In this document: piece after piece, positions 677 through 58,201 of the stretch | Layout: every line of letters begins with the position of its first letter | How positions within the stretch are numbered: position 1 is the first letter of the stretch | Assembly (NCBI GenBank): GCA_965237955.1 | Contig: OZ250169.1 | Location: 2,976,001 to 3,040,000 of the forward strand | Reading direction: 5' to 3' | Source: Candidatus Marinacidobacterales bacterium | GTDB lineage: Bacteria > Acidobacteriota > Vicinamibacteria > Marinacidobacterales > SMYC01 | Length of the DNA: 64,000 nt | The notes under the pieces: model-generated | Database searches by the model: none | What the model was told of the DNA's origin: nothing | Seen by the model: the letters and a program-made list of their open reading frames with translations, nothing else | Translations under genes and position numbers: made by a program

Positions 677-1111
677 GTGATGCCGCAGGATACAGGGGTT
701 GGCCGGAACGTCGTTTTGGACGGTTTGGACTTCGCCAGCTTACAGCGGGTCTGGGAGCAGACCTTTGGGGCTGCTCCTCCAAGCTCGCTCTCGCGTGTTT
801 TCCTGCGCCGCGTTCTCTTGCACGAACGCCAGTGCCGGACCCATGGCGGGCTTTCGGCCGCAACCCGGCGCGCTCTGGCTGCCATGGCGAACGAGACACC
901 AAGCTCCGGCGCTCCCGCAGGGTCCGTTTCTGCCGGCACCCATCTCGTCCGCGAGTGGAATGGCCGGACCTACCAGGTCGAGGTACTCGACAACGGCTAT
1001 CGGTTCGATGGCAAAACCTATCCGTCCCTCACTACCATCGCAAAGCGAATCACCGGCACCCACTGGTCTGGACCACGCTTTTTCGGTCTGACGCCCAAGC
1101 GCAAGGCCTAA
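677..1111 (+). CDS. DUF2924 domain protein
   Basis: GTHLVREWNGRTYQVEV...YPSLTTIAKRITGTHWSGPRFFGL signature, directly upstream of a serine recombinase. Confidence 0.85.
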   Translation: MMPQDTGVGRNVVLDGLDFASLQRVWEQTFGAAPPSSLSRVFLRRVLLHERQCRTHGGLSAATRRALAAMANETPSSGAPAGSVSAGTHLVREWNGRTYQVEVLDNGYRFDGKTYPSLTTIAKRITGTHWSGPRFFGLTPKRKA

Positions 1112-1112
1112 C

Positions 1113-2097
1113 ATGAAGAAGATCCGCTGTGCCATCTATACGCGAAAGAGTGCGGAAGAGGGTCTCGAACAGGCGTTCAACTCCCTCGATGCGCAGCGAG
1201 AAGCCTGCGCCGCGTATGTCGCGAGCCAGAAAGCGGAGGGCTGGGTGCTGCTGCCAACCGTCTACGAGGACGCGGGGCTCTCGGGAGGAACCCTGGAGCG
1301 CCTGGGCCTGCAGCGCTTGCTCGCCGACATCGACGCAGGTCTCGTCGACCAGATCGTGGTCTACAAGGTCGACCGGCTGACCCGTTCCCTCTCCGACTTT
1401 GCAAAGCTCGTCGAGCGGCTCGAGGCGGCCGGCTCGGTTTTCGTCTCGGTGACTCAGTCCTTCAACACCGCGACCAGCATGGGACGACTGACGCTGCATA
1501 TGCTGCTGTCCTTCGCACAATTCGAACGCGAGGTCACGGCCGAGCGGATCCGCGATAAGGTCGCTGCCTCCAAGCGCAAGGGACTATGGATGGGCGGCCG
1601 CGTACCGCTCGGCTATGAGAAGGACGAGCGCACGCTGCGCATCAACGAGGCTGAGGCCAAAACGGTCCAGACGCTCTATGCGCTGTACCGGAAGCACGGA
1701 ACGCTCCGGCAGGTGAAGGCCGAGGCGGACCGTCTGAGGCTGCGCACCAAGCGACGCTTCGCCGCGGATGGAACCCGGACAGGCGGGTTGCCGTTCCGTC
1801 GCGGACACCTCCACTGCCTGCTGACCAATCCTCTCTACGCCGGCCGTATCCGGCACCAGAGGCGTGTCTACGAGGGCCAGCATCCATCGATCATTGCTCC
1901 GGAGCTCTGGGACGCGGTCCAGGCGCAGCTGCAGGCAGGGGCTGCCAAACCAAGGAGACGCACGACGAAGGGCCGCGCAGCCCCCTCCCCGCTGGCAGGC
2001 AAGCTCTTCGACGAGACCGGGGACCGGCTGACGCCGAGCCACACCAAAAAGAAAAACGGGCAACGGCTCCGCTACTACGTCTCCCGGCGCCTCATCC
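1113..2097 (+). pseudogene. Large serine recombinase truncated by an R1 terminus
   Basis: RCAIYTRKS catalytic N-terminus. Near-identical to 31518-33179 up to YVSRRLI, then R1 starts at 2098. Confidence 0.9.
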
Positions 2098-2151
2098 CGT
2101 CCTGTGCCAAAACTCGGCCCTTTTGAAATAGACCATAAATCAGCAGCTTAG
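2098..2151 (+). repeat. R1 terminus (54 bp: CGTCCTGTGCCAAAACTCGGCCCTTTTGAAATAGACCAYAAATCAGCAGCTTAG); 28 copies in window
   Basis: + starts: 2098, 5485, 7467, 17076, 17800, 19989, 22793, 26103, 26217, 30820, 34042, 47824, 50934, 55820, 60298, 60410, 60769, 61001. - ends: 5802, 11875, 12439, 18461, 26948, 28182, 37562, 48140, 59498, 61345. Some copies keep only the outer 20-30 bp. Confidence 0.95.
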
Positions 2152-2612: not shown

Positions 2613-3139
2613 GGTGCTTCCGTCATCAAGTGTTGGTGAGATGACGCTAAGACTTTACGGTGCATTAAGTTACAGAAAAAATAGCGCTCGTGACCTTCGC
2701 TGCGCGCTAAATGGAGCGTAAGCGCCTCTTTTGCAAAGGGATGCGTACACATCACCAACAGTAAACAGCGCAAGCACCCGGCGTAGCGTGGAAACAGCTC
2801 AGGAACACGATTCGATATTCGCTCTCGACTAGGTGGTCATCTGCATGGTGACGGCCCGCCCAAAGGGTAGCTCTGCTCAATGGTTGTCGCGGGTCCCGCC
2901 GTCCACGCCGCATCGACTGCTCGCTTGTAACGTTGCCAGTGGATCAAGTTTCGGCACAGGACGCCATCGCATGTAATAATGATGTCGGCGTGCACACGAA
3001 GATGTTGCTGAACGTCAGGCACCGCCTGGTCAGCCCAGTCTGCATCGCCGAAAGAACTGTGTCCCTTCGAAATCAGGCTCAAACTCTAGCACGTGAGCGG
3101 GTTACGCGGCGGCCACCAACACTTGATTTCAGAAGCACC
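2613..3139. mobile_element. MITE-like element with R4 terminal inverted repeats (GGTGCTTCCGYCATCAAGTGTTGG)
   Basis: GGTGCTTCCGTCATCAAGTGTTGG at 2613 and CCAACACTTGATTTCAGAAGCACC ending 3139. Further R4 copies near 5701, 15978, 35945, 47910, 51070, 53210 and 60520. Confidence 0.7.
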
Positions 3140-7730: not shown

Positions 7731-8162
7731 ATGCCGCAGGATACAGGGGTTGGCCGGAACGTCGTTTTGGACGGTTTGGACTTCGCCAGCTTACGGCGGG
7801 TCTGGGAGCAGACCTTTGGGGCTGCTCCTCCAAGCTCGCTCTCGCGTGTTTTCCTGCGCCGCGTTCTCTTGCACGAACGCCAGTGCCGGACCCATGGCGG
7901 GCTTTCGGCTACAACCCGGCGCGCTCTGGCTGCCATGGTGAACGAGACACCAAGCCCTGGTGCTCCCGCAGGGTCCGTTTCTGCCGGCACCCATCTCGTC
8001 CGCGAGTGGAATGGCCGGACCTACCAGGTCGAGGTAATCGACAACGGCTATCGGTTCGATGGCAAAACCTATCCGTCCCTCACTACCATCGCAAAGCGAA
8101 TCACCGGCACCCACTGGTCAGGACCACGCTTTTTCGGTCTGACGCCCAAGCGCAAGGCCTAA
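7731..8162 (+). CDS. DUF2924 domain protein (copy 2)
   Basis: Near-identical to 677-1111. The following recombinase is cut after MKKIRCAIYTRKS by IS5 at 8202. Confidence 0.8.
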   Translation: MPQDTGVGRNVVLDGLDFASLRRVWEQTFGAAPPSSLSRVFLRRVLLHERQCRTHGGLSATTRRALAAMVNETPSPGAPAGSVSAGTHLVREWNGRTYQVEVIDNGYRFDGKTYPSLTTIAKRITGTHWSGPRFFGLTPKRKA

Positions 8163-8201
8163 CATGAAGAAGATCCGCTGTGCCATCTATACGCGAAAGA
8201 G

Positions 8202-9288
8202 TGCCTTGGTGCACAACTCCGATAGAGGCCGAGAGCTCGCTTGGCCCCGACTCCCATCATCCGGTCATCTCGCTATCAGGCATCCCGAGCGCCGTCATCG
8301 TGTTGAGAATCTTGCACCCGATCCTTGCCTCGACTCTCTGTGCCGCCAACCCTCTCGCTCGCATCGCTGAGCCCACGATAGCCTTGTAGCGATGGAACGT
8401 TGTCTCGACTTTGCTCCGTTTGCTGTAGCCCGATTCTGTGTGCCACTTTCGTTTGCCGAGCCGAGCTTGTGCTGCAATGTTGCGATTACGCTGTCGGCTG
8501 CTCGCCGGCCCCGATGCGAGCTGGGCGCCCTTGCGCGGCGGTATCAGCACCCTCGGCGAGCGATGAGCGCTGTGATTCTCGATCGCCTCATAGACGCCGC
8601 TGGCGTCGTATGCGGTGTCAGCTCTGGCCGATGAGATGGGACTGTCGATCTGTCCGACAAGCGATGCAACCCGCGATGAATCGCGGGCTCTTTTGCTCGT
8701 CAGCTCGCCGGCGACGACTTCGCCACTCTGCTCGTCGACACACAGATGGAGCTTGCGATAGTCCCTGCTCTTTGGTGCTCTGCGCAGCTGGCCGGCGTGG
8801 ACAGCGAGACCGCTGCTGTCGATCAAGATGTGCAACGGCGTCTTCTGCTTGTCTTGGTAGAAGGGGACCTTACCCAGCTTCGCCTTGCGCCTCGAGATCG
8901 TGGTGTGATTGGGCACATCATTGTCTAGCTTCATCAGAGCGAACAACGATCGCAGCAATCCCTCGCTCTGCCTAGATGACAGATGAAACACCATGCCCAG
9001 GGTGACAGCCGTCTCGATGGCGTGGTTCGAGTACTTGCGTTGACGGCCCGGTTTCCTCCTCCTCGGCCGGGGCGCGTCCCAGTTCACAAGCTTGCCGGCG
9101 GTGAGCGAGATCCAGACGGTCAGGCTCCCGCGGTTGCGCAGACCCGCCTCATATTCACGCCAATTCCTCACGCGATAGGCCTTCTTCACATACTTCCGCT
9201 GAGTGCGTTTGAAAATGCTCATGGGGAACCTCGAATCCGTGAGTAAAGGACAATTGTGGACCGAGATCGCGAGTTGTGCACCAAGGCA
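8202..9288 (-). mobile_element. IS5 family (IS903-like) element A, copy 1
   Basis: 18-bp TIR TGCCTTGGTGCACAACTC; 1087 bp; no TSD. Confidence 0.9.
8257..9222 (-). CDS. IS5 family transposase
   Basis: YRVRNWREYEAGLRNRGSLTVW, IDSSGL, RKLHL, ADTAYD and GYSKRSKVET motifs. Confidence 0.9.
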   Translation of the reverse strand: MSIFKRTQRKYVKKAYRVRNWREYEAGLRNRGSLTVWISLTAGKLVNWDAPRPRRRKPGRQRKYSNHAIETAVTLGMVFHLSSRQSEGLLRSLFALMKLDNDVPNHTTISRRKAKLGKVPFYQDKQKTPLHILIDSSGLAVHAGQLRRAPKSRDYRKLHLCVDEQSGEVVAGELTSKRARDSSRVASLVGQIDSPISSARADTAYDASGVYEAIENHSAHRSPRVLIPPRKGAQLASGPASSRQRNRNIAAQARLGKRKWHTESGYSKRSKVETTFHRYKAIVGSAMRARGLAAQRVEARIGCKILNTMTALGMPDSEMTG

Positions 9289-31081: not shown

Positions 31082-31516
31082 GTGATGCCGCAGGATACAG
31101 GGGTTGGGCGGAACGTCGTTCTGGACGGTTTGGACTTCGCCAGCTTGCGGCGGGTCTGGGAGCAGACCTTTGGGGCTGCTCCTCCAAGCTCGCTCTCTCG
31201 CGTTTTCATGCGCCGCGTTCTTGCGTACGAACGCCAGTGCCGGACCCTTGGCTGGCATTCGGCCACAACCCGGCGCGCTCTGGCTGCCATGGCGAACGAG
31301 ACACCAAGCTCCGGCGCTCTCGCAGGGTCCGTTTCTGCCGGCACCCATCTCGTCCGCGAGTGGAATGGCCGGACCTACCAGGTCGAGGTAATCGACAACG
31401 GCTATCGGTTCGATGGCAAAACCTATCCGTCCCTCACTACCATCGCAAAGCGAATCACCGGCACCCACTGGTCAGGACCACGCTTTTTCGGTCTCACGCC
31501 CAAGCGCAAGGCCTAA
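31082..31516 (+). CDS. DUF2924 domain protein
   Basis: As 677-1111. Confidence 0.85.
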   Translation: MMPQDTGVGRNVVLDGLDFASLRRVWEQTFGAAPPSSLSRVFMRRVLAYERQCRTLGWHSATTRRALAAMANETPSSGALAGSVSAGTHLVREWNGRTYQVEVIDNGYRFDGKTYPSLTTIAKRITGTHWSGPRFFGLTPKRKA

Positions 31517-31517
31517 C

Positions 31518-33179
31518 ATGAAGAAGATCCGCTGTGCCATCTATACGCGAAAGAGTGCGGAAGAGGGTCTCGAACAGGAGTTCAACTCCCTCGATGCGCA
31601 GCGAGAAGCCTGCGCCGCGTATGTCGCGAGCCAGAAAGCGGAGGGCTGGGTGCTGCTGCCAACCGTCTACGAGGACGCGGGGCTCTCGGGAGGAACCCTG
31701 GAGCGCCCGGGCCTGCAGCGCTTGCTCGCCGACATCGACGCAGGTCTCGTCGACCAGATTGTGGTCTACAAGGTCGACCGGCTGACCCGTTCCCTCTCCG
31801 ACTTTGCAAAGCTCGTCGAGCGGCTCGAGGCGGCCGGCGCGGTTTTCGTCTCGGTGACTCAGTCCTTCAACACCGCGACCAGCATGGGACGACTGACGCT
31901 GCATATGCTGCTGTCCTTCGCACAATTCGAACGCGAGGTCACGGCCGAGCGGATCCGCGATAAGGTCGCTGCCTCCAAGCGCAAGGGACTATGGATGGGC
32001 GGCCGCGTACCGCTCGGCTATGAGAAGGACGGGCGCACGCTGCGCATCAACGAGGCTGAGGCCGAAACGGTCCGGACGCTCTATGCGCTGTACCGAAAGC
32101 ACGAAACGCTCCGGCAGGTGAAGGCCGAGGCGGACCGTCTGAGACTGCGTACCAAGCAACGCTTCACCGCGGATGGAACCCGAACGGGCGGGCTGCCGTT
32201 CCGTCGCGGACACCTCCACTGCCTGCTGACCAATCCTCTCTACGCCGGCCGCATCCGGCACCAGAGGCGTGTCTACGAGGGCCAGCATCCATCGATCATT
32301 GCTCCGGAGCTCTGGGACGCGGTCCAAACGCAGCTGCAGGCAGGGGCTGCCAAACCAAGGAGACGCACGACGAAGGGCCGTGCCGCCCGTTCCCCACTGG
32401 CAGGCAAGCTCTTCGACGAGACCGGGGACCGGCTGACGCCGAGCCACACCAAAAAGAAAAACGGGCAACGGCTCCGCTACTACGTCTCCCGGCGCCTCAT
32501 CCAGCACAGTGGCCAAAAGGACCTCTCCGGCTGGCGACTGCCCGCCCCGATGCTGGAACAGACCGCCGTGCATCTCATCCGACAGCATGTGGATGCCACG
32601 ACCTTCTCGGCCTCGTTGATCCACACTCCGACGATGCAAGAGCTCGCCTCGGTGCGTCGCTTTTTAGACGGGCTGTGTTCCGGTAGTAATGATGATAGTG
32701 CCTCGGCAGCCCCCCTGCTCCGTCTTATCCGGCGGGTCGACATCAGCCCCGGCTCTGTGTCCATCCTGCTCGACCGCAATGCGTTCGCTGCTTGCCTCTC
32801 TATGGGACCCGAACGCATTCGCGAGGATGCACTCCGCATCCTCGCACCGTTCCGCTTGCGTCGACGCAGCGTCGAGACCAAGCTCGTTCTGGGCAACCCC
32901 ACGAAATCCGTCGACCGCACACTCCTGCGCAATATCAGAAACGCCCGCTCCTGGCTCGGCCGAATCAAAGCAGGCAAAACCTATGAGCAGATTGCCACCG
33001 AAAACGCCATCCCAACGGACCGCGTGCGCAAGGCAATCCGTTATGCCTTCCTGGCTCCCGACATCGTCCGCGCCATTGTCGAAGGCCGCCAGCCCGTTGG
33101 GCTGACCTCGAGCTACCTCTTGCATCATCCGCTTCCCGACGATTGGGAGAAACAGCGAGTGCTCGTCAAAACGCTGTGA
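31518..33179 (+). CDS. Large serine recombinase (resolvase plus recombinase domains), intact copy
   Basis: RCAIYTRKS, VVYKVDRLTRS, FAQFEREVTAER and LTNPLYAG motifs; C-terminal AFLAPDIVRAIVEGRQP...LPDDWEKQ. Confidence 0.92.
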   Translation: MKKIRCAIYTRKSAEEGLEQEFNSLDAQREACAAYVASQKAEGWVLLPTVYEDAGLSGGTLERPGLQRLLADIDAGLVDQIVVYKVDRLTRSLSDFAKLVERLEAAGAVFVSVTQSFNTATSMGRLTLHMLLSFAQFEREVTAERIRDKVAASKRKGLWMGGRVPLGYEKDGRTLRINEAEAETVRTLYALYRKHETLRQVKAEADRLRLRTKQRFTADGTRTGGLPFRRGHLHCLLTNPLYAGRIRHQRRVYEGQHPSIIAPELWDAVQTQLQAGAAKPRRRTTKGRAARSPLAGKLFDETGDRLTPSHTKKKNGQRLRYYVSRRLIQHSGQKDLSGWRLPAPMLEQTAVHLIRQHVDATTFSASLIHTPTMQELASVRRFLDGLCSGSNDDSASAAPLLRLIRRVDISPGSVSILLDRNAFAACLSMGPERIREDALRILAPFRLRRRSVETKLVLGNPTKSVDRTLLRNIRNARSWLGRIKAGKTYEQIATENAIPTDRVRKAIRYAFLAPDIVRAIVEGRQPVGLTSSYLLHHPLPDDWEKQRVLVKTL

Positions 33180-34501
33180 GCCTGCCAGCGCCCACTTCGT
33201 GAATGGGCTCGGTTAGCAGCAAGCTGCTCTCCGACACTGGCCTCCACCAATCAGCCTCAAACTGGCCCAAATTCCCTGTCATGGTTTCCAGACTCGGATA
33301 GCTCCTTGTACTGGACCGTCTGCGGAGTCATCTTCGTTTCCTCCGTAAAACTCCGCTGGATGAATTCGAGGTTTGGCCAATTCGAATTCCGCTATTCGCC
33401 TTCTCCTCAGGCGCGATCTAGGCGTTAAGCGTCTTCTCATTATCTGCGCGATTAAGTAGAAAAACGGCCCGATAAGCCCCAAAATCGCACCAAATTGCAC
33501 GTTAATGGCCTGTTTAGCTCTGTTTCTGATCGTTTCCAGCCAAGAATCGGAAGCTCCACTCGAGCCTCCTGACTGCGATAGCCGGAAAGATGTTCCCGTC
33601 GACGAACATTCGCTGATGAGACGTAAAGCCTTTTGCGACAATGAGTAACGGTCGGAGCCGCCTCCGGAGGGTTTACGACACGGCCCTCTTTCAGGCGTCC
33701 AGGAGGTTGAGATTGCCGTATAGAAAATTTGATTAAAGCAAATTCGATTCCGGCTCGGAACGAGCACCCGTCGATGATGCGTGCGGGGACCAGCACGTGA
33801 CAGCGGCCGTTAAATCACTGTAGAAAAATAGGATAGAAGGAAATGGGCACCAAGGTTGAAACCCGAGAGCGCGTAAAACAGCCTTCTCGCCAAACCTGCG
33901 TACGCATCAAAAAACTCAAGAAATGCGCGAAACTCGAAACCTCCTGAATCTCCACTGACTTTTCTGTTTGAGGATTTCCGCCAAAAGCTGGACCACCTTT
34001 TGCCGAGACCGGATAGCTCCAACCTGCACCATCCGCCACCCCGTCCTGTGCCAAAACTCGGCCCTTTTGAAATAGACCATTAATCAGCAGCTTAGTGTCT
34101 GTTGTGCCTTCTATTTATTCATCCGCGCGTCCCGAACTTGATTGATCTTCGGTCTACCAGCACCATGCCGGCATGATTTCGTCGTTGGTTCCCGCTCTCA
34201 TCTCTGCCTTCAAGGTTCGTCGCGAGCTAGCTCTCGAGAATGTCACTCTTCGGGAGCAGCTCGCCGTCCTCCACCATTCCGTGAAACGGCCGCTGGTTTT
34301 GGTGCCGCGTAACCCGCTCGTGTGCTAGAGTTTGAGCCTGATTTCGAGAGACGCAGTTCTTTCGGCGATGCGGGCTGGGCTGACCACACGGTGCCTGACG
34401 TTCAGAGACACCTTCGTGTGCACGCCGACATCCTTAATTAATGGCGTTCGCCGACACAGGCAGACCAGCTGACACTAGCATTCAAACACGGCGTAGCAAC
34501 A

Positions 34502-34813
34502 TATCTGGACTCCTCTAGTCAAGCCCCTTTCTTAATAAATCTTCCATCGAAGCTGCGCATCCATCGCGTCGTGACGAGTGGGTCAGACTGCAAACGTATC
34601 TTCGGCCTCAGTGAGGAGCGTCTTGGGTGCTCCGGGCCATGATGGAAAATCCGCGCGCGAGGAGCCAATCACTTTGAACGACCTCTTAGGGCCAGTGTTG
34701 CTATCGGCTTGACCCCGCGCCGGTCCGACCGGTACGCCATCAGTTGGATGGGTATCGTCGCAGCCTCTCTTTTGGAAGGGAAAAAGGAAAACACGAAAGT
34801 GGAGCCTCTAAGT
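34502..34813 (-). ncRNA. Predicted bridge/seek RNA region
   Basis: Two stem-closed internal loops with segments matching the target (34694-34703, 34670-34674) and the donor junction (34639-34647, 34595-34601). Confidence 0.75.
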
Positions 34814-35845
34814 CTAAGCGGCCATCGGCGACTGGAATTCACTCTCGCGGGTGGAGACGGCCCAGACGATCCGGGCGAGTTTGTTGGCGACAGCAATCAC
34901 GGCCTTGTTGTGTCCCCGCGAGCGGTGGACCTTCCGAGCCCAGGCGCGGAGCTTGTCGGGCGGGCTCTTACTGACGTTCGCCGCGCGGAGCACGGCGCGC
35001 CCGCCCTGGGTGAGGAGCATACGGAGGTAGGAGTCGCCACGCTTGGTGATGCGTCCGAGGCGGCGAATGTCGCCACTGGAGTTTTCCTTGGGAACTAGGC
35101 CGAGGTAGCTCGAGAAGCGGCGCCCCGATGGGAAGCGGCGAAGATCGCCGACGAAGCCCACGATGGCGGTCGCGGTCAGAAGTCCGATGCCGGGAATGGC
35201 GAGAAGTCGTTGGACTTCAGGAAGCTGCTTGGTGAGCGCCTTGAGCTCGTGCTCGATGCCAGCGCACTTGTCCTTGAGTTCTCGAATCTCGGAGCAGGCA
35301 TCACGGAGATGCGAACGGAGCACGTCGGGCAAATCAGAATCAGCGTCTTCGACGAGTTCGAAGAGGGCGGGCACGACGAAGTGAGCGCCCTTTGGGATGA
35401 TGAATCCGAGTTCGCGCAGGATCCCGCGTACGGCATTGATGCGTGCGGTCCGTGTGGAGAGCCATCCTGAGCGCAGGCGATGGAGCGCGGCGAGGCTGTG
35501 CTGGTGCACGGACTTAATGGGCACGGGAAGAATCTCCTCGTTCCTGTAGGCCTCGAGCAACGCTTTGGCGTCGGCGCGGTCGTTCTTGCTCCCGCGTCGA
35601 TAGGGCCTCACGAGGTGAGGTGGGAGCAGGACGACGTCGTGTCCCAACCTTCGGAACGTCCTTGCCCAGAAGTGAGCAGAGCCGCAGGCTTCGAGAAGCA
35701 CGGTGGCAGCGCTCTGTTTGGCAAAAAACGACACCAACTTGGGTCGACTCACACGGAGTTGCTTGGACACCTTCCCCGCTTCTCCCGAGATGGCAATCTC
35801 GAAGACGTTCTTTGCAAGATCCACAGCGATCGTCGTATCTTTCAT
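34814..35845 (-). CDS. IS110 family DEDD recombinase/transposase
   Basis: AVDLAKNVF, LEACG, KNDRADA, IPGIG and ENSSG motifs; AGGAGG RBS. Confidence 0.95.
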   Translation of the reverse strand: MKDTTIAVDLAKNVFEIAISGEAGKVSKQLRVSRPKLVSFFAKQSAATVLLEACGSAHFWARTFRRLGHDVVLLPPHLVRPYRRGSKNDRADAKALLEAYRNEEILPVPIKSVHQHSLAALHRLRSGWLSTRTARINAVRGILRELGFIIPKGAHFVVPALFELVEDADSDLPDVLRSHLRDACSEIRELKDKCAGIEHELKALTKQLPEVQRLLAIPGIGLLTATAIVGFVGDLRRFPSGRRFSSYLGLVPKENSSGDIRRLGRITKRGDSYLRMLLTQGGRAVLRAANVSKSPPDKLRAWARKVHRSRGHNKAVIAVANKLARIVWAVSTRESEFQSPMAA

Positions 35846-35973
35846 TCGGACTCCTCCTTTTCGATGCGTATTCGACTGACTTTGGCACATCGATGCCGTC
35901 TATGTCAGCGGAGGAGTCCATTCCATCACTTGATGGCGGAAGCACTTGATGGCGGAAGCACCGAATAGAGTCC

Positions 35974-37455
35974 ATGCCGACGGCAAGAACCAGCGAGAGC
36001 CACCCACTGCGCATCACGGCGATGACCCTGGGCGACGGCCGGGGCCGGATCGGCTTCTCGCAGTGCCCCGGTAGGATCGATCGCTACGCAATATCCGGGC
36101 CCTGGAAGCGGGATCTCGACACCGACCTCGACGCGATTCAGCGCTGGGGAGCGACTGCGGTGGTCAGCCTGATCACCCACGAAGAGATCCCCGATCTGAA
36201 GGTGCACGATCTCCCGAGGGCGGTTCGAGACCGGCACATGGAGTGGTGGCATGCCCCGATTCCCGACGGAGAGGCACCGGAACAGGACTTCGAGCACGCC
36301 TGGAAGGCCACCGGCGAGTCCATCCGGAACCGGCTGCGGCTCGGCTTCGACGTGCTGCTCCACTGCCGGGGTGGTCTGGGACGCGCCGGGACCATCACAG
36401 CCCGCCTGCTGGTGGAGTTGGGCGTGCAACCGGACGATGCGATCCGCCGCGTGCGCGACGCCCGCGAATGGACCATCGAGAACGGCTCCCAGCTGGCTCA
36501 CGTGAGGCAGTGTTCGGCACAAGCACCATCGGTTCCATCCCGGACCGCGGACGACATCCACGACCGGGCGCTCGGGGCCTTCCTCGGTCTGGCGGTGGGC
36601 GACGCGGTCGGCACGACGCTCGAATTCTGCTCCCGCGATACGCAGCCGCGTCTAGAAGACATGGTCGGTGGCGGCCCGTTCGATCTGCCGGCCGGCGCTT
36701 GGACCGACGACACGGCCATGGCGCTGGCCCTGGCCGACAGCCTGGCGGAATCCAAGACGCTCGACTGCCGGGACCTGATGGACCGTTTCGTGAAGTGGTG
36801 GCGAGACGGAGACTACTCGTGGAGCGGAGACTGCTTCGACATTGGAAACACGACCTGCCAAGCGCTCACCCGGTACCTACGGACGGGTGACCCGGTCGCG
36901 GGTTCGACCGATCCCTTGAGCGCAGGCAACGGCTCGCTGATGCGGCTCGCCCCCGTTGCGCTCCGGTTCAGGCACGACCGGCCGCGCCTGCTCGCGGCAG
37001 CCGCCGACCAGTCCCGGACGACCCACGGAGGCGAGGAAGCAGTGGACGCCTGCCGGGCGTTCGGCGCACTCCTGGCAGACGCCATCGCCGGGTCACCGTT
37101 CTCGGACGTTCTGGCTCCGAGACGGTTCACGGGAGCGGCGGCAATCACTCAGGTCATAGCCGGCAGCTGGCGAGGACGGACACGGGATACGATCCGCTCC
37201 AGCGGGTACGTCGTTCACACGCTCGAAGCCGCCATCTGGTCAGTCGCCCGCACCGGAGACTTCCGCGGCGCGGTGCTGCTCGCGGCCAACCTGGCCGACG
37301 ACGCCGATACGGTAGCAGCAGTGACGGGGCAGCTCGCCGGCGCCCTCTACGGCCTGAACGCCATCCCCGACCACTGGCGGGAACGCGTTGCCTGGAAGGA
37401 TCGACTCCTGGCAGCGGCGCGGCGGTTGCTGTCGGAACCCCTTGCCGACCGGTAG
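35974..37455 (+). CDS. Protein phosphatase (CDKN3/DSP-like) fused to ADP-ribosylglycohydrolase
   Basis: HCRGGLGR P-loop; GDAVG, WTDDT, GNGSLMR and DADT motifs. Confidence 0.9.
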   Translation: MPTARTSESHPLRITAMTLGDGRGRIGFSQCPGRIDRYAISGPWKRDLDTDLDAIQRWGATAVVSLITHEEIPDLKVHDLPRAVRDRHMEWWHAPIPDGEAPEQDFEHAWKATGESIRNRLRLGFDVLLHCRGGLGRAGTITARLLVELGVQPDDAIRRVRDAREWTIENGSQLAHVRQCSAQAPSVPSRTADDIHDRALGAFLGLAVGDAVGTTLEFCSRDTQPRLEDMVGGGPFDLPAGAWTDDTAMALALADSLAESKTLDCRDLMDRFVKWWRDGDYSWSGDCFDIGNTTCQALTRYLRTGDPVAGSTDPLSAGNGSLMRLAPVALRFRHDRPRLLAAAADQSRTTHGGEEAVDACRAFGALLADAIAGSPFSDVLAPRRFTGAAAITQVIAGSWRGRTRDTIRSSGYVVHTLEAAIWSVARTGDFRGAVLLAANLADDADTVAAVTGQLAGALYGLNAIPDHWRERVAWKDRLLAAARRLLSEPLADR

Positions 37456-37562
37456 AAGTTGGGTGGGTAGCCGAAGCACGGCTCTTGACCCGGTCGCAAA
37501 CACAGACACTAAGCTGCTGATATTATGCTCTGTTTCAAAAGGCCGAGTTTTGGCACAGGACG

Positions 37563-38450
37563 GGCAGCTCCGCCAAGCTCGCTCTCGCGTATCTTCATGC
37601 GCCGCGTTCTCTTGCACGAACGCCAGTGCCGGACCCATGGCGGGCTTTCGGCCGCAACCCGGCGCTCTCTGGCCGCTATGGCGAACGAGACACCAGGCAA
37701 CGCCGCTCCCGCAGGGTCCGTTTCTACCGGCACCCATCTCGTCCGCGAGTGGAATGGCCGGACCTACCAGGTCGAGGTAGTCGACAACGGCTATCGGTTC
37801 GACGGCAAAACCTATCCGTCCCTCACCGCCATCACAAAAGCGAATCACCGGCACCCACTGGTCAGGACCACGCTTTTTCGGTCTGACGCCCAAGCGCAAG
37901 GCCTAACATGAAGAAAATCCGCTGTGCCATCTATACGCGAAAGAGCGCGGAAGAGGGTCTCGAGCAGGAGTTCAACTCCCTCGATGCGCAGCGAGAAGCC
38001 TGCGCCGCGTATGTCGCGAGCCACAAGGCGGAGGGCTGGGTGCTGCTGCGGACTGTCTACGAGGACGCGGGACTCTCGGGAGGAACCCTGGAGCGCCCGG
38101 GCCTGCAGCGCTTGCTCGCCGACATCGATGCCGGTCTCGTCGAGCAGATCGTGGTCTACAAGGTCGACCGGCTGACCCGTTCCCTCTCCGACTTTGCGAA
38201 GCTCGTCGAACGGCTCGAGGCGGCCGGCGCGGTTTTCGTCTCGGTGACTCAGTCCTTCAACACCGCGACCAGCATGGGACGACTGACGCTGCATATGCTG
38301 CTGTCCTTCGCACAATTCGAACGCGAGGTCACGGCCGAGCGGATCCGCGATAAGGTCGCTGCCTCCAAGCGCAAGGGACTATGGATGGGCGGCCGCGTAC
38401 CGCTCGGCTATGAGAAGGACGAGCGCACGCTGCGCATCAACGAGGCCTAA
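37563..38450 (+). pseudogene. DUF2924 (5'-truncated, frameshifted) plus truncated serine recombinase
   Basis: Starts at the R1 end (37562); the recombinase stops at RINEA. Confidence 0.85.
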
Positions 38451-46798: not shown

Positions 46799-47823
46799 CT
46801 ACGCGGCACGGCAGTAGTAGTTGAGAATGCCCCCAAGTCGCTCTCGCGACACGATGGGGCCAGCGTCATTCGCGCTTGCCGGCAGAGGTGTGAGGAGCTC
46901 GTTGCCGAGACCTTGGTGGTTCCGTTCTGTGTGATAGTGCACTACGTATTCGGTTACCGCTGTGCGCAGGTGTCGCTCACTGAGAGGTACGAAGCGGTCG
47001 AGACACTCTCGACGTATGGAGAGAACGAATCTTTCCGCATATGCGTTCAGATTCGGACTATTAGCGGGAAGGCGAAGGGGCTTCACGCCTGAATCTCTCA
47101 ACAGCCCACGTACCGCCTCGGTGAATAGCGGGTCCCGGTCGTGGATGAGGTATCGCTTGCCAAGGAGGAAACCATCCCACATGTCAGTGAGGTTTCTTGC
47201 CACCTGCTTCATCCACTCCCCGTTGGGGTCCGACGTTATCCCACCGATGCACACGCAGCGAGTGGCGATATCGATGACAAACAGGACATGGTAGCGGACG
47301 AGGCCGAACGGGTTCACAACCTCGACGGTGAACAGGTCTGTCGCAGCGATGGCGCCCCAATGAGCCTTGATGAAGGTGCTCCACGACATGCTCCTGCCCC
47401 GCTCCGGCGCAGGAGCGATACCGTGCTCGGCGAGGAGCCTCTTGATAGTGTTGCGTCCGAGTTCATGTCCTAGGTTCTTGAGTGCGCCTCGCAGGCGCGT
47501 ATATCCCCACGTCGGGTTCTCCCGCGCCACGCGCACAATGAGCTCACGGATGTCCTTCGCCGTCGGAGGTCGGCCTGGACTCCGGTTCTTGCTGCCATCG
47601 TACTTGGCTGCGATGAGGTGGCGGTACCAGCGCAGAAGCGTAGCGGGTGTGGCAACGGACGCAATCTGGGCCAGCGCCTCGCGGCCCAAAGCCTGGGCCT
47701 TGACGGCGAGCCTGCGCCGGTCGTCGTCAGAGAGCCTGAGACGCTTGCCCCGAAGCCCGGCTCGGAGCACACGGTTCTCCTCTTGCAGGTAGTCGATCAC
47801 ATCCTGCTGCTGGCGGTTGACCC
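46799..47823 (-). pseudogene. rve-type DDE integrase/transposase, nearly complete, N-terminus removed by an R1 MITE
   Basis: [34 protein letters not shown] and [13 protein letters not shown] motifs. Confidence 0.9.
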
Positions 47824-48140
47824 CGTCCTGTGCCAAAACTCGGCCCTTTTGAAAGACCATGGCTGTAATTTAATGCACTGTAAAGTCTTAGTGTCATTTT
47901 GCCAACACTTAATGGCGGAAGCACCCATGAGGTCTGTGTGAGCGGCAGGGCTGCCCGATCGAACAACGGCTGCCTGACCAACAGTAGGAATTGCACATGG
48001 TACGTCATGATGGATCCGAAGATAACACCCTCGGGCCAGACGATTGTAAAGGCCACGGCCCTTGGTACCATCGCAAAACACAGACGCTAAGCTGCTGATT
48101 TATCGGCTATTTCAAGAGGGCCGAGTTTTGGCACAGGACG
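47824..48140. mobile_element. R1 MITE, copy 2 (inverted relative to 5485-5802)
   Basis: Reverse complement of 5485-5802 with scattered substitutions. Confidence 0.85.
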
Positions 48141-48150
48141 GGGTCAGGCG

Positions 48151-50721: not shown

Positions 50722-51297
50722 GTAATAAGGATAGTAGCGAACGCGCCCGAACCGTGTCAAGTGGTCTAGCATTCGGCGTTCAAGTTCACGCTCCGAATCC
50801 TACGGTGCTGAACTTTCGCTCGGACCGATTCGGCACGGCGCAAAGTGCTGGTTGCTGAATGCTTACGACTGAACGCTGATCTACTGTACGCGCATCGGCG
50901 AGCCCAGCGACACGATAGCAGGGATTGGGACCCCGTCCTGTGCCAAAACTCGGCCCTCTTGAAATAGACCACAAATCAGCAGCTTAGACGCCCTTGGAAT
51001 CCGCCAACCCTTAGGCTGCGTGGCGAGCTACGGGCAGTGAACTTCGCACCCGGAAGTCCCTCATTAGACGGTGCTTCCGCAATCAAGTGTTGGTGGCTGC
51101 CGCGTAACTCGCTCGTGTGCTAGAGTTTGAGCCTGATTTCGAGAGACGCAGTTCTTTCGGCGATGCGGGCTGGGCTGACCACACGGTGCCTGACGTTCAG
51201 GGACACCTTCGTGCGCACGCCGACATCCTTAAATTAATGGCGTTCGCCGACACAGGCAGGCCAGCTGACACTAGCATTCAAACACGGGGCGTAGCAA

Positions 51298-51774
51298 CAT
51301 ATCTGGACTCCTCTAGTCAAGCCCCTTTCTTAATAAATCTTCCATCGAAGCTGCGCATCCATCGCGTCGTGACGAGTGGGTCAGACTGCAAACGTATCTT
51401 CGGCCTCAGTGAGGAGCGTCTTGGGTGCTCCGGGCCATGATGGAAAATCCGCGCGCGAGGAGCCAATCACTTTGAACGACCTCTCTTAGGGCTAGTGTTG
51501 CTATCGGCTTGACCCCGCGCCGGTCCGACCGGTACGCCATCAGTTGGATGGGTATCGTCGCAGCCTCTTTTGGAAGGGAAAAAGGAAAACACGAAAGTGG
51601 AGCCTCTAAGTCTAAGCGGCCATCGGCGACTGGAATTCACTCTCGCGGGTGGAGACGGCCCAGACGATCCGGGCGAGTTTGTTGGCGACAGCAATCACGG
51701 CCTTGTTGTGTCCCCGCGAGCGGTGGACCTTCCGAGCCCAGGCGCGGAGCTTGTCGGGCGGGCTCTTACTGACG
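51298..51774 (-). mobile_element. Partial tandem copy of the IS1111-type 3' end
   Basis: Duplicates the non-coding end and the last approximately 55 codons. Confidence 0.85.
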
Positions 51775-52084
51775 TATCTGGACTCCTCTAGTCAAGCCCC
51801 TTTCTTAATAAATCTTCCATCGAAGCTGCGCATCCATCGCGTCGTGACGAGTGGGTCAGACTGCAAACGTATCTTCGGCCTCAGTGAGGAGCGTCTTGGG
51901 TGCTCCGGGCCATGATGGAAAATCCGCGCGCGAGGAGCCAATCACTTTGAACGACCTCTTAGGGCCAGTGTTGCTATCGGCTTGACCCCGCGCCGGTCCG
52001 ACCGGTACGCCATCAGTTGGATGGGTATCGTCGCAGCCTCTTTTGGAAGGGAAAAAGGAAAACACGAAAGTGGAGCCTCTAAGT

Positions 52085-53116
52085 CTAAGCGGCCATCGGC
52101 GACTGGAATTCACTCTCGCGGGTGGAGACGGCCCAGACGATCCGGGCGAGTTTGTTGGCGACAGCAATCACGGCCTTGTTGTGTCCCCGCGAGCGGTGGA
52201 CCTTCCGAGCCCAGGCGCGGAGCTTGTCGGGCGGGCTCTTACTGACGTTCGCCGCGCGGAGCACGGCGCGCCCGCCCTGGGTGAGGAGCATACGGAGGTA
52301 GGAGTCGCCACGCTTGGTGATGCGTCCGAGGCGGCGAATGTCGCCACTGGAGTTTTCCTTGGGAACTAGGCCGAGGTAGCTCGAGAAGCGGCGCCCCGAT
52401 GGGAAGCGGCGAAGATCGCCGACGAAGCCCACGATGGCGGTCGCGGTCAGAAGTCCGATGCCGGGAATGGCGAGAAGTCGTTGGACTTCAGGAAGCTGCT
52501 TGGTGAGCGCCTTGAGCTCGTGCTCGATGCCAGCGCACTTGTCCTTGAGTTCTCGAATCTCGGAGCAGGCATCACGGAGATGCGAACGGAGCACGTCGGG
52601 CAAATCAGAATCAGCGTCTTCGACGAGTTCGAAGAGGGCGGGCACGACGAAGTGAGCGCCCTTTGGGATGATGAATCCGAGTTCGCGCAGGATCCCGCGT
52701 ACGGCATTGATGCGTGCGGTCCGTGTGGAGAGCCATCCTGAGCGCAGGCGATGGAGCGCGGCGAGGCTGTGCTGGTGCACGGACTTAATGGGCACGGGAA
52801 GAATCTCCTCGTTCCTGTAGGCCTCGAGCAACGCTTTGGCGTCGGCGCGGTCGTTCTTGCTCCCGCGTCGATAGGGCCTCACGAGGTGAGGTGGGAGCAG
52901 GACGACGTCGTGTCCCAACCTTCGGAACGTCCTTGCCCAGAAGTGAGCAGAGCCGCAGGCTTCGAGAAGCACGGTGGCAGCGCTCTGTTTGGCAAAAAAC
53001 GACACCAACTTGGGTCGACTCACACGGAGTTGCTTGGACACCTTCCCCGCTTCTCCCGAGATGGCAATCTCGAAGACGTTCTTTGCAAGATCCACAGCGA
53101 TCGTCGTATCTTTCAT
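52085..53116 (-). CDS. IS110 family recombinase, copy 2 (element 51775-53199)
   Basis: Protein identical to 34814-35845. Confidence 0.95.
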   Translation of the reverse strand: MKDTTIAVDLAKNVFEIAISGEAGKVSKQLRVSRPKLVSFFAKQSAATVLLEACGSAHFWARTFRRLGHDVVLLPPHLVRPYRRGSKNDRADAKALLEAYRNEEILPVPIKSVHQHSLAALHRLRSGWLSTRTARINAVRGILRELGFIIPKGAHFVVPALFELVEDADSDLPDVLRSHLRDACSEIRELKDKCAGIEHELKALTKQLPEVQRLLAIPGIGLLTATAIVGFVGDLRRFPSGRRFSSYLGLVPKENSSGDIRRLGRITKRGDSYLRMLLTQGGRAVLRAANVSKSPPDKLRAWARKVHRSRGHNKAVIAVANKLARIVWAVSTRESEFQSPMAA

Positions 53117-53405
53117 TCGGACTCCTCCTTTTCGATGCGTATTCGACTGACTTTGGCACATCGATGCCGTCTATGTCAGCGGAGGAGTCCATTCCATCAC
53201 TTGATGGCGGAAGCACCTCCCGGACTCGACGACGACCTCCTCGGCCATGGTACAGTATCGACGCTGGCGCCGCCTGGTGATCCCAGGCTGGACACATGGT
53301 TGGCGCTTTACGCTCGGACATTGTTCGCGGACGAGATCGCAGAGTGTGTGGCTTTCTGGACAGCATGCGAGACCTGCAACAGACTCTCTGGTAGCCGTGG
53401 CTGTT

Positions 53406-55926: not shown

Positions 55927-57116
55927 CTACCGGTCGGCAAGGGGTTCCGACAGCAACCGCCGCGCCGCTGCCAGGAGTCGATCCTTCCAGGCAACGCGTT
56001 CCCGCCAGTGGTCGGGGATGGCGTTCAGGCCGTAGAGGGCGCCGGCGAGCTGCCCCGTCACTGCTGCTACCGTATCGGCGTCGTCGGCCAGGTTGGCCGC
56101 GAGCAGCACCGCGCTGCGGAAGTCTCCGGTGCGGGCGACTGACCAAATGGCGGCTTCGAGCGTGTGAACGACGCACCCGCTGGAGCGGATCGTATCCCGT
56201 GTCCGTCCTCGCCAGCTGCCGGCTATGACCTGAGTGATTGCCGCCGCTCCCGTGAACCGTCTCGGAGCCAGAACGTCCGAGAACGGTGACCCGGCGATGG
56301 CGTCTGCCAGGAGTGCGCCGAACGCCCGGCAGGCGTCCACTGCTTCCTCGGCTCCGTGGGTCGTCCGGGACTGGTCGGCGGCTGCCGCGAGCAGGCGCGG
56401 CCGGTCGTGCCTGAACCGGAGCGCAACGGGGGCGAGCCGCATCAGCGAGCCGTTGCCTGCGCTCAAGGGATCGGTCGAACCCGCGACCGGGTCACCCGTC
56501 CGTAGGTACCGGGTGAGCGCTTGGCAGGTCGTGTTTCCGATGTCGAAGCAGTCTCCGCTCCACGAGTAGTCTCCGTCTCGCCACCACTTCACGAAACGGT
56601 CCATCAGGTCCCGGCAGTCGAGCGTCTTGGATTCCGCCAGGCTGTCGGCAAGGGCCAGCGCCATGGCCGTGTCGTCGGTCCAAGCACCGGCCGGCAGATC
56701 GAACGGGCCGCCACCGACCATGTCTTCTAGACGCGGCTGCGTATCGCGGGAGCAGAATTCGAGCGTCGTGCCGACCGCGTCGCCCACCGCCAGACCGAGG
56801 AAGGCCCCGAGCGCCCGGTCGTGGATGTCGTCCGCGGTCCGGGATGGAACCGATGGTGCTTGTGCCGAACACTGCCTCACGTGGGCCAGCTGGGAGTCGT
56901 TCTCGATGGTCCCTTCGTGGGCGTCGCGCACGCGGCGGATCGCATCGTCCGGTTGCACGCCCAACTCCACCAGCAGGCGGGCTGTGATGGTCCCGGCGCG
57001 TCCCAGACCACCCCGACAGTGGAGCAGCACGTCGAAGCCGAGCCGCAGTCGGTTCCTGATGGACTCGCCGGTGGCCTTCCAGGCGTGCTCGAAGTCCTGT
57101 TCCGGAGCCTCTCCGT
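55927..57116 (-). pseudogene. 5'-truncated phosphatase/ADP-ribosylglycohydrolase copy
   Basis: Matches 36266-37455. Confidence 0.85.
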
Positions 57117-58201
57117 GGCGTTGTTGCACCGCTCTGGCTGAGAGCGAAATCCGCCTATGGTGGTGGCCGAGGTATGTTCGAGCATGAAGTATCCCAAGCG
57201 CTGCCAGTACAAGCACGCGAAGCAGAAGAAGTACCACGTTCGCAACTGGGCGGAATACAACGAAGGGCTGCGCCGCCGGGGCGATTTGACAGTCTGGTTT
57301 GACGAGGAGGCAATCGCGAACTGGAAGGCCGACAAGACCGGTAAGCCTGGCGGTCAACGGGTCTATTCAGACATGGCGATTGAAACGGGCCTGGTTGTCC
57401 GGATGGTGTACAAGCTCGCCTACCGACAAACCGAAGGCTTCTTGCACTCGATCGCCTCGCTTCTCGGGCTCGGTATCGAGATCCCGGACTACTCGACGTT
57501 GTGTCGGCGCTCGAGGTTGCTCCGCAAGAAGCTGCGGATTCCGAAAGCCGCGAGCACTCAACCCATCCACCTGATGATCGATAGCACGGGCTTGAGGATT
57601 CATGTTGGAACCGCCCGCAAACCGCCAAAGCTGCGCGCATGGCGCAAGTTGCACATCGCCGTTGATCGCGAGACAGGGAACATTGTTGCGTCCAAACTGA
57701 CGGCGTCACGAGCTCGCGACGCAACCCGAGTCCTCTCTTTGCTAACACAGATTCAAGCACCTCTAGTGTCGGTGGCGGCGGACAGTGCATACGACAAGGA
57801 AGCGGTCTACGAAGCCATCGAAGCGCACAGTCCTGGACGAAGGACGCGCGTGGTGATTCCGCCGCAACGAAACGCGACGCTCAGTCAGAATTCGAACACC
57901 GCCATGCAGGAGCGCGATCGCCATATTCGTGCAATCGAAAGACACGGCCGACGTGAATGGTACAAGCTCTCAGGCTACACCAAGCGAAGCATGGTGGAGA
58001 ACGCGGTCTATCGTTACAAGGCGATCATCGGGCCGGAGATGCGGGCTCGAACGTTGGCGAGGCAACGAGTTGAACACCGAATTGGGTGCGAGATACTCAA
58101 CAAGATGGCTGCGCTCGGGATGCCCGATACGTACTGCGCCGGGTGACTCTGCAACCGGCACAGGGAGGTCAGCGATTTGCTCCGGGCCGTGCAACAACGC
58201 C
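57117..58201 (+). mobile_element. IS5 family element B, copy 2 (transposase 57184-58146)
   Basis: 1085 bp, same TIRs. Confidence 0.92.

What the first reader, a model, noticed from the sequence alone, without database searches (positions are those of the whole stretch)
34490..35962. IS1111-type bridge/seek RNA visibly programmed against a MITE terminal repeat
Seen: the junctions give target TAGCAA-CA-CTTG (inside TIR R4) and donor TTCCAT-CA-TATCT. The predicted RNA (- strand) reads AGCCGAU-AGCAACACU-hairpin-AAGUG-AUUGGCU, a closed loop with a 9-10 nt left-target match (34694-34703) and a 5-nt reverse-complement right-target match (34670-34674). A second loop has UUCCAUCAU (9/9 to donor, 34639-34647) and AGAUACG (6/7, 34595-34601). 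Established: IS110 bridge RNAs use this two-loop design, and IS4321/IS5075 target Tn21-family IRs. Inference: this is a CA-core recombinase that homes to the ends of a resident MITE. Both copies share the same context and encode identical intact proteins.
Basis: partly seen in the sequence, partly recalled or inferred. Interest (0 to 1): 0.8.

Follow-up and report, generated by a model that had tools for sequence, protein, structure and literature searches.

The report
RNA-guided IS homing on IS1-like ends
A small jumping gene carries a predicted guide RNA that spells the right-hand end of another jumping gene (an IS1-like element and its miniature copies) and has filled nearly every perfect such end in this bacterium; it likely descends from elements that aim at integron attC sites, and it is a clear new example of a known habit, not a new mechanism.

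Summary
Observation confirmed: all four guide matches sit at the stated coordinates. All 18 on-target RNA-side junctions in the genome read TAGCAA|CA|TATCT, and 24 of 25 start-side junctions continue CACTTGA. The exception is a 93%-identical paralogue whose guides changed together with its target. Across 40 relatives' guide sets the guides track their own targets (0 of 2000 shuffles reached the score).

Corrections: the target is the right inverted repeat of an IS1-like transposon, at its stop codon, which its 244-bp MITE shares. The element falls in the clade with the attC-targeting ISPa25 (46%), not near IS5075 (34%), so the guide was likely retargeted from attC. CA is the donor's dinucleotide; most relatives have CG on the target side.

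No perfect free right end remains here (0 of 26), while other genomes keep 15-76 empty sites. Tandem duplications start exactly at either junction (6 of 25, 5 of 26; random 5 of 20,000), like the half-match by-products of 2026 preprints. RNA and circle were not observed. The scan already noted this habit on IS66 and IS256 ends. Verdict: new member of a known kind.

The parts
34502..35928 (-). IS1111-type insertion sequence, copy 1 (1427 bp; about 1425 bp in most genomic copies)
   Evidence: junction census; lengths
34814..35845 (-). DEDD recombinase gene, 343 aa from the likely ATG (ORF open from 35890); D9, E52, D89, D92 and S256 conserved
   Evidence: Pfam PF01548+PF02371; NF033542 309 bits vs cut-off 140; alignment
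34586..34741 (-). predicted bridge/seek RNA core downstream of the gene (ends approximate; not observed as RNA)
   Evidence: 25-sequence alignment and consensus fold
34663..34709 (-). target-binding loop with closing stem and inner hairpin
34694..34704 (-). left target guide; reads TAGCAACACT like the + strand of the target
34670..34674 (-). right target guide AAGTG, reverse complement of CACTT
34639..34647 (-). left donor guide TTCCATCAT
34595..34601 (-). right donor guide AGATACG (pairs fully with CG|TATCT, 6 of 7 with CA|TATCT)
34506..34515 (.). sub-terminal inverted repeat at the RNA-side (right) end
35911..35920 (.). sub-terminal inverted repeat at the gene-start (left) end
34517..34522 (-). 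TTGACT, candidate -35 box of a promoter that would form at the circle junction (inferred, untested)
   Evidence: the linear region has no sigma-70-like site
34303..34501 (+). host MITE of the IS1-like family, left end lost; ends in the left target TAGCAA and the target's CA
   Evidence: 97% to the intact 244-bp MITE at G000 C1:704979-705222
35929..35944 (+). 16-bp tandem duplication of the outer flank that starts at the junction core
35945..35962 (+). outer 18 bp of the IS1-like right inverted repeat, cut off from the MITE by the insertion
51070..51299 (+). host MITE of copy 2, with intact left end
51300..51774 (-). 475-bp tandem duplicate of the RNA end of copy 2 (second guide RNA plus 3' gene fragment), joined at a CG
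51775..53199 (-). IS copy 2, identical protein
53200..53217 (+). outer part of the inverted repeat of copy 2's MITE

Best explanation
This is an IS1111-group insertion sequence whose DEDD recombinase likely uses an RNA from the non-coding right end to base-pair with TAGCAA-CA-CTT, the sequence in which nearly all its copies sit, at the right inverted repeat of an IS1-like transposon and its MITEs. Shown: anatomy, site fidelity, guide-target covariation, and placement in the clade of attC-targeting elements. Inferred: the guide was retargeted from an integron attC site (the same-genome paralogue still sits in an attC-like site); the element copies out as a circle and inserts by exchange of the RNA-sense strand just 3' of the core, so the target's dinucleotide stays at the RNA-side junction and the donor's CA at the other. 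One-sided (half-match) transfers from either junction to a nearby C-starting dinucleotide likely made the tandem duplications.
For: Site fidelity: 18 of 25 RNA-side ends read TAGCAA|CA|TATCT, 6 are self-junctions and 1 is the paralogue; 24 of 25 start-side ends continue CACTTGA. Guide-level choice: none of the 100 free left-end or sister-family ends, which share CAACACTT in 82 cases, reads TAG, and they stay free. Natural reprogramming: the paralogue (C1:5245810-5247237, 93% aa) has guides ATAACAATCG and CAGCG and sits in ATAACAAT|CA|CTG. Covariation over 40 guide sets: left guide 6.05 of 7 vs 4.46 shuffled, right guide 2.48 of 3 vs 1.22, 0 of 2000 shuffles as high. The consensus fold leaves the guides unpaired; covariation score 0.106 vs 0.086, 0 of 500. 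Target identity: TAG is the stop codon of a 355-aa IS1-like ORF. Independent insertion: IS bodies are identical in 9 of 13 compared copies while their MITEs differ by 0.5-27%. Clade: ISPa25 46%, IS5075 34%; 50-row branch with SH-aLRT 100 holds this element and ISPa25/21/62 but not IS5075; 13 of 42 rows pass a strict attC-like test vs 0.95 expected, the paralogue among them. By-products. Mechanism by analogy to PMC11187229, PMC13626964, 10.1101/2025.10.25.684509 and 10.64898/2026.08.31.748434.
Against: No RNA, RNA ends or circle junction were seen: TTCCATCATATCT is absent from the genome, and no circle joint was listed in contigs of 8 runs (contigs drop rare forms). Single-sequence folds are weak. 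The covariation test lets the left guide pick the best of five registers and kin are not independent. The tree is a quick tree, midpoint-rooted, with an open fork at the base of this lineage, so the direction attC-to-IS1 end rests on the spread of attC-like sites in the clade, not on a formal test. 29 of 42 rows fail the strict attC test (3 of them are this element). One perfect 11-mer in a diverged repeat (C1:6860157) and two others stay empty. Three or four copies share outer flanks and are segmental duplicates, not new insertions.
Confidence: 0.88

Rival explanations
1. The IS reached most sites as a passenger: one insertion into a MITE, after which the IS1-like transposase (or larger duplications) moved the MITE+IS composite.
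For: The outer 18 bp of the repeat survive the insertion. Composites of 1666-1674 bp occur at five or more sites with different flanks. Copies at C1:2972717, 3010501, 7872668 and 2860498 share the outer flank.
Against: Host MITEs differ by up to 27% while IS bodies are identical. The IS sits in both MITE ends and full IS1-like copies. Perfect free sites are gone here but plentiful elsewhere.
Confidence: 0.07
2. Targeting is by protein-DNA or structure recognition of the repeat, and the RNA matches are incidental or only relics.
For: The RNA was not observed; some attC-targeting relatives match only 4-5 of 7 left-guide positions.
Against: Guides and targets change together in the paralogue and across 40 sets. 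Left ends of the same transposon share the outer repeat but are not used in this genome. seekRNA dependence is shown for four IS1111 elements (PMC11187229).
Confidence: 0.03
3. For the tandem duplications only: they are long-read assembly artefacts at a repeated sequence, not recombinase products.
For: One related assembly shows mosaic stretches near these ends (L028, L030, L036). Only contigs, not raw reads, could be laid.
Against: Units start exactly at the core in one polarity (6 of 25, 5 of 26) but not at other repeat ends (0 of 66, 2 of 345, 2 of 345, 0 of 266, 0 of 266) or random places (5 of 20,000). All 17 distinct break points begin with C. An Illumina contig from another study joins 35036 to 34502 (run X18, one contig, depth 5).
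Confidence: 0.12
4. For the altered free ends only: they are escape variants selected in the IS1-like element, not simply what was left after saturation.
For: All 6 free right ends of IS1-like coding copies differ within the guide-paired 11-mer; a C-to-T form recurs in 4 and a 3-bp deletion in 2, one of them the intact copy.
Against: Saturation alone leaves only mismatched sites free. The C-to-T form also occurs in 8 of 100 left or sister ends that are not targeted. Relatives keep 15-76 perfect empty sites.
Confidence: 0.3

Closest known systems
ISPa25 and the IS1111-attC group (ISKpn4, ISPst6, ISPa21, ISPa62)
   Same: Best named match, 46% aa. Same branch. Same RNA layout, with an ATAAC-starting left guide in ISPa25. 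Insertion just after a stop codon, opposite to the upstream gene. ISPa25 is described as targeting the ISKpn4 attC site in PMC11187229 (passage).
   Different: This lineage's guide reads TAGCAACAC/AAGTG and its site is a transposon end with no attC-like hairpin; only its paralogue keeps an attC-like site.
IS4321 / IS5075 (IS1111 group), targeting Tn21-family terminal repeats
   Same: Same habit: insertion at one base inside another element's terminal inverted repeat (Partridge and Hall 2003, seen as a title only).
   Different: 34% aa and outside this branch; the host is an IS1-like element, not Tn3-family, so the habit likely arose separately.
ISEc11 / ISXne4 natural reprogramming pair (PMC11187229)
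   Same: Close relatives with conserved RNA stems, changed guides and changed target.
   Different: Here the pair is 93% identical and in one chromosome, and the switch is between target classes (attC-like site vs IS end).
IS621 bridge RNA system (PMC11208160, PMC13626964)
   Same: Target loop then donor loop, four guides, two-base core.
   Different: RNA at the right end; 10-bp sub-terminal repeats; target-side core varies across the clade; left-guide register is flexible (core at guide positions 8-9 here, 9-10 in the paralogue).
Half-match recombination and tandem expansion of IS110 loci (10.64898/2026.08.14.744561; 10.64898/2026.08.31.748434; ISPpu9/ssr9, PMC12288879)
   Same: Tandem units anchored at one junction half, with an unmatched partner site.
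   Different: The passages read say tandem units keep almost only left-donor matches; here units start at the right donor or at the right target (flank DNA outside the element). Naming conventions for IS1111 ends may explain part of this.

Membership tests
IS110 family | DEDD (RuvC-like) plus Transposase_20 domains with catalytic D/E/D/D and serine | tested here: met
IS1111 group | sub-terminal inverted repeats with 7-bp left and 3-bp right extensions (PMC11187229 intro) | tested here: met
   10-bp perfect repeat (the paper gives usually 11-13); ends TGATGGA and ATA match the clade pattern
IS1111 group | long non-coding region downstream of the gene | tested here: met
   312 bp from stop to right end
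IS1111 group | GL-P----S(t)G motif and 330-350 aa length | tested here: met
   GLVPKENSSG, 343 aa
IS1111 group | RNA matches both target strands, top-strand complement first | tested here: met
   left guide pairs with the IS top strand and precedes the right guide
IS1111 group | circular intermediate with junction promoter | tested here: inconclusive
   junction absent from genome and not listed in contigs of 8 runs
IS1111 group | RNA co-purifies with the recombinase and is required for movement | not testable with these tools
   needs bench work
IS1111-attC group | recombinase groups with ISPa25/ISPa21/ISPa62 | tested here: met
   (quick tree, SH-aLRT 100)
IS1111-attC group | inserts in an attC site | tested here: not met
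   this element fails the attC-like test, its paralogue passes; so it is filed as a retargeted offshoot, not a member
IS4321/IS5075 type | targets the Tn21-family terminal repeat | tested here: not met
   target belongs to an IS1-like element
IS1 family (for the host element) | transposase scores above the family cut-off | tested here: not met
   NF033558 78.8 bits vs 100; PF03400 21.2 vs 24.1; IS1 is the best NCBIfam hit; hence 'IS1-like'
IS1 family (for the host element) | 8-9 bp target duplication (recalled, from no call) | tested here: not met
   no duplication over 3 bp at any end pair listed

The most novel reading that the evidence does not exclude
An attC-homing IS1111 lineage switched prey to the right end of an IS1-like transposon by a few guide changes, and sister genomes show the stages of the chase. 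Where empty sites remain, insertion is clean. The junction asymmetry would be a natural record of top-strand-only exchange in the IS1111 group.
Probability: 0.35. Interest if true: 0.55.

Novelty: new member of a known kind. Interest (0 to 1): 0.36.

Why it matters
It adds a well-readable, recently active IS1111 system (14 identical full-length ORFs in one chromosome) with a built-in control: a 93%-identical paralogue with other guides and another target class. It links two known habits, attC homing and transposon-end homing, as likely ancestor and descendant within one clade. Its by-products fit the half-match and one-strand models now argued from IS621 and CazIS110, and extend them to an IS1111 element and to target-side flank DNA. 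None of this is a new mechanism.

Tried and rejected
Circle junction: not in the genome, not listed in contigs of 8 public runs; no evidence either way. Expression: the RNA-labelled runs X17 and X18 are contigs and cannot show strand, ends or level. Rfam: 0 matches at E up to 1 in 34300-36100. Promoter scan of the linear element: 0 sites. Single-sequence folding: not significant. Reciprocal deletion products (target-left joined to internal IS sequence): looked for among 12 truncated hits and not found; those breaks come from other elements. The idea that the repeat is itself an attC half-site: rejected, it has a sharp outer boundary and bounds a transposase ORF. The idea that the tandem duplications are undescribed: rejected. 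The careful tree did not finish; only the quick tree is used. Viral contigs gave only distant relatives (30-46%). In one search two of my 24 typed pairs (columns 18/98, 19/97) were out of register and lower the score. Rows dropped: 2 with a mis-called left end and 4 without an anchor, of 57 with both ends; duplicates then collapsed to 46 rows and 40 guide sets. In one search, 6 of the 26 'right-end-like' rows look misclassified, which leaves 0 of 20. Tetu and Holmes 2008 and Partridge and Hall 2003 are not held. No structure or complex prediction was run.
Full report
What is there. The finding covers a 1427-bp insertion sequence on the minus strand (34502-35928). It encodes an IS110-family DEDD recombinase (PF01548 and PF02371; NF033542 at 309 bits against a cut-off of 140). 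The likely start is the ATG at 35845, giving 343 aa like most homologues. D9, E52, D89, D92 and S256 are invariant or nearly so in 44 homologues. Ten-bp sub-terminal inverted repeats lie at 34506-34515 and 35911-35920, and a 312-bp non-coding stretch follows the gene. These are the IS1111-group marks given in PMC11187229 (I read parts 1-3 of 9 and passages).

The observation. In 5000 shuffles of the non-coding end, 81 matched the target over 9 nt or more, 19 the donor, none both. Folding the single sequence is unconvincing (z -1.88; z -0.31). The consensus fold of 25 relatives leaves both target guides open between a closing stem and a hairpin, and closes the donor hairpin with an invariant helix. 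On a structure I named from it, 89.9% of cells pair and the covariation score is 0.106 against 0.086 in shuffles (0 of 500) and at most 0.068 in slid controls (two of my pairs were out of register). Rfam has no match.

Site fidelity. The 8.13-Mb chromosome holds 14 full-length ORFs identical to this one. Of 25 RNA-side ends, 18 read TAGCAA|CA|TATCT, 6 are joined to internal IS sequence and 1 belongs to a paralogue. Of 25 start-side ends, 24 continue CACTTGA. The paralogue (C1:5245810-5247237, 93% aa) has left guide ATAACAATCG and right guide CAGCG and sits in GATAACAAT|CA|CTGG: a natural reprogramming inside one genome. Relatives came from genome, metagenome and viral collections. Of 57 loci with both ends and at least 45% identity, 6 were dropped (2 mis-called ends, 4 without anchor) and duplicates collapsed to 46 rows and 40 guide sets. 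Left guides matched their own targets at 6.05 of 7 positions against 4.46 shuffled (best of five registers; 3.68 against 2.80 in a fixed register), right guides at 2.48 of 3 against 1.22; no shuffle of 2000 reached either value. Kin are not independent, so this overstates significance.

What the target is. The repeat GGTGCTTCCGCCATCAAGTGTTG bounds a 1197-bp element (C1:3086457-3087653) with a 355-aa ORF, MITEs of about 166 bp, and a 244-bp MITE. The ORF's best NCBIfam hit is IS1 (E 5e-22, but 78.8 bits against a cut-off of 100), and no target duplication over 3 bp was found, so I call it IS1-like. TAG in the target is this ORF's stop codon: the IS lands 18 bp inside the right repeat, facing the other way. 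The window's copies are in the 244-bp MITE. In related assemblies, 14 loci carry IS1-like coding sequence running up to the junction, 2 of them full length. The choice follows the guide, not the repeat as a whole: 100 free left or sister-family ends read mostly CACCAA, TACCAA or CGCCAA and 82 keep CAACACTT, while 0 of 26 free right-end-like rows carry the perfect 11-mer (6 rows look misclassified). Only three exact 11-mers remain in the genome. IS bodies are identical in 9 of 13 compared copies while host MITEs differ by 0.5-27%, which points to recent, independent insertions; three or four copies are segmental duplicates.

Saturation differs between genomes. Empty TAGCAACACTTGATG sites number 76, 51, 20, 15 and 0 in G433, G418, G415, G408 and G412, with 30, 7, 2, 4 and 3 filled junctions. 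G413, which had no match to the RNA end, has 39; G409 has 1 and G401, G402 and G416 have none. G000 has 0 empty and 18 filled. All 5 G433 loci read are on target, while the 4 G412 loci show self-junctions or imperfect sites. Among named assemblies (Ca. Marinacidobacterales, Acidobacteriota; up to 98% aa), one gave 29 perfect, 1 other and 1 self junction, another 1 perfect, 7 other and 8 self. With so few genomes the link between saturation and by-products is a hint only. All 6 free right ends of IS1-like coding copies in G000 differ in the guide-paired stretch, but leftovers would look the same as selected escapes.

Ancestry. The best named match among 5000 plasmid records is ISPa25 (46%), then ISPa62 and ISPa21 (42-43%); IS5075 is at 34%. 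PMC11187229 describes ISPa25 as targeting the attC site used by ISKpn4. ISPa25's non-coding end has the same layout and an ATAAC-starting guide. In a quick tree of 65 proteins the element lies in a 50-row branch (SH-aLRT 100) with ISPa25/21/62; IS5075 is outside (midpoint root, careful search unfinished). Most left targets in the branch contain TAAC or CAAC, and 13 of 42 testable rows pass a strict attC-like test against 0.95 expected (maximum 4 in 300 shuffles), including the paralogue but not this element (the attC core consensus is recalled). The simplest reading is a switch from attC to the IS1-like end, by changes such as TAAC to TAGC and CAGCG to AAGTG.

The core. In 46 rows the dinucleotide at the RNA-side junction is CG 27, CA 6, GG 5, CC 4 and four singletons, while the start-side junction ends in CA in 40. 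Copies of one multi-copy relative differ at the RNA side and not at the other. So the target keeps its dinucleotide on one side and the donor brings CA on the other, with no duplication, as in the 7-bp/3-bp end rule of PMC11187229. This is what exchange of one strand 3' of the core would leave (inference), in line with top-strand models in 10.1101/2025.10.25.684509 (parts 1-3 of 5 read) and PMC13626964 (abstract and Discussion). The left guide's register is loose: core at positions 8-9 here, 9-10 in the paralogue, best register 8 to 12 across the clade.

By-products. Tandem duplications start exactly after the core and run in one direction: 6 of 25 RNA-side ends (four loci; units 292-475 bp holding an extra guide RNA) and 5 of 26 start-side ends (flank units of 16, 48-62 and 79 bp). 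Controls: 0 of 66 free repeats at the same base, 2 of 345 and 2 of 345 ends of another element, 0 of 266 twice, 5 of 20,000 random places; opposite polarity 1 of 25 and 0 of 26. All 17 distinct break points begin with C. An Illumina contig from a separate study joins 35036 to 34502 (run X18, one contig, depth 5). Against: one related assembly has mosaic stretches there, and raw reads were not available. Such one-sided events are described as half-match recombination and tandem expansion (10.64898/2026.08.14.744561, part 1 of 7 and passages; 10.64898/2026.08.31.748434, part 1 of 6 and passages); modular circles are known for ISPpu9 (PMC12288879, passages). Those passages report mainly left-donor-anchored units and the second paper does not mention IS1111; units anchored at the right target, outside the element, did not appear in what I read. 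Supplements of these preprints are closed, and I did not open Siddiquee's Supplementary Fig. 7 on ISPa25.

What was not shown. No RNA, no circle, no activity. The circle junction is absent from the genome and from the joints listed for 8 runs.

Novelty. Right-end bridge RNAs are predicted in 93% of IS1111 elements (PMC11208160, passages). Homing on another element's terminal repeat is known from IS4321/IS5075 (title only; text not held), and this scan has noted it on IS66 and IS256 ends (unchecked notes). One five-term search for an IS1-family target found no paper, which is weak evidence of absence. Verdict: a new member of a known kind, with a useful paralogue control and a likely attC-to-IS-end switch. 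Interest 0.36.

Noticed in passing
G000 C1:3086457-3087653, 6421873-6423073, 1093134-1094224; MITEs such as C1:704979-705222, 956555-956720; window 2613-3139: An IS1-like family (zinc finger, HTH, DDE-like; below the IS1 cut-off) with 166-bp and 244-bp MITEs; no target duplication over 3 bp at any listed end pair.
   Followed up: partly
window, e.g. 34040-34100, 47822-48141, 50932-50992; 345 exact ends genome-wide: A second abundant repeat family with ends CCCGTCCTGTGCCAAAA; 16 of 60 end pairs are about 1.4 kb long and 56 of 60 show no duplication. 6 of 114 IS1-like ends abut this repeat at one fixed offset, hinting at a nested chain of elements aiming at each other's ends.
   Followed up: partly
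G000 C1:2861922-2862390 (L079): Seven extra tandem units of 48-62 bp, each starting at the junction core and ending at a CA or CC, truncating the 5' part of the neighbouring phosphatase/ADP-ribosylglycohydrolase gene.
   Followed up: partly
G000 C1:3346204-3347146 (L236): Integron-integrase-like gene in two frames (E 8.7e-68, below the family cut-off); no attC array checked beyond 1.5 kb.
   Followed up: partly
L032, L035, L241-L266: The 94% relatives carry right donor guide AGATATG, which pairs fully with CA|TATCT, whereas this element keeps AGATACG (pairs with CG); here 2 of 4 distinct self-junctions use CG, there 0 of 6.
   Followed up: partly
run X2 over window 34648-34716; run X17 at 35927: X2 has a second contig over the target loop with two other letters (depth 200 vs 503), not resolved; X17 has a near-identical left end followed by an attC-like flank, so more retargeted variants may exist.
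   Followed up: no
L167-L169, L182-L191, L113, L114: Two separate branches of the clade use a TAGCAG-type left guide with TGGT on the right; that target class was not identified.
   Followed up: no
window 768-2126, 7819-8213, 31173-33179, 37562-38136; 35974-37455 and 55927-57357: The window is a mobile-element-dense island with repeated large serine recombinase genes, IS5-like DDE elements, two thermolysin-type peptidases and two copies of a phosphatase/ADP-ribosylglycohydrolase fusion.
   Followed up: no
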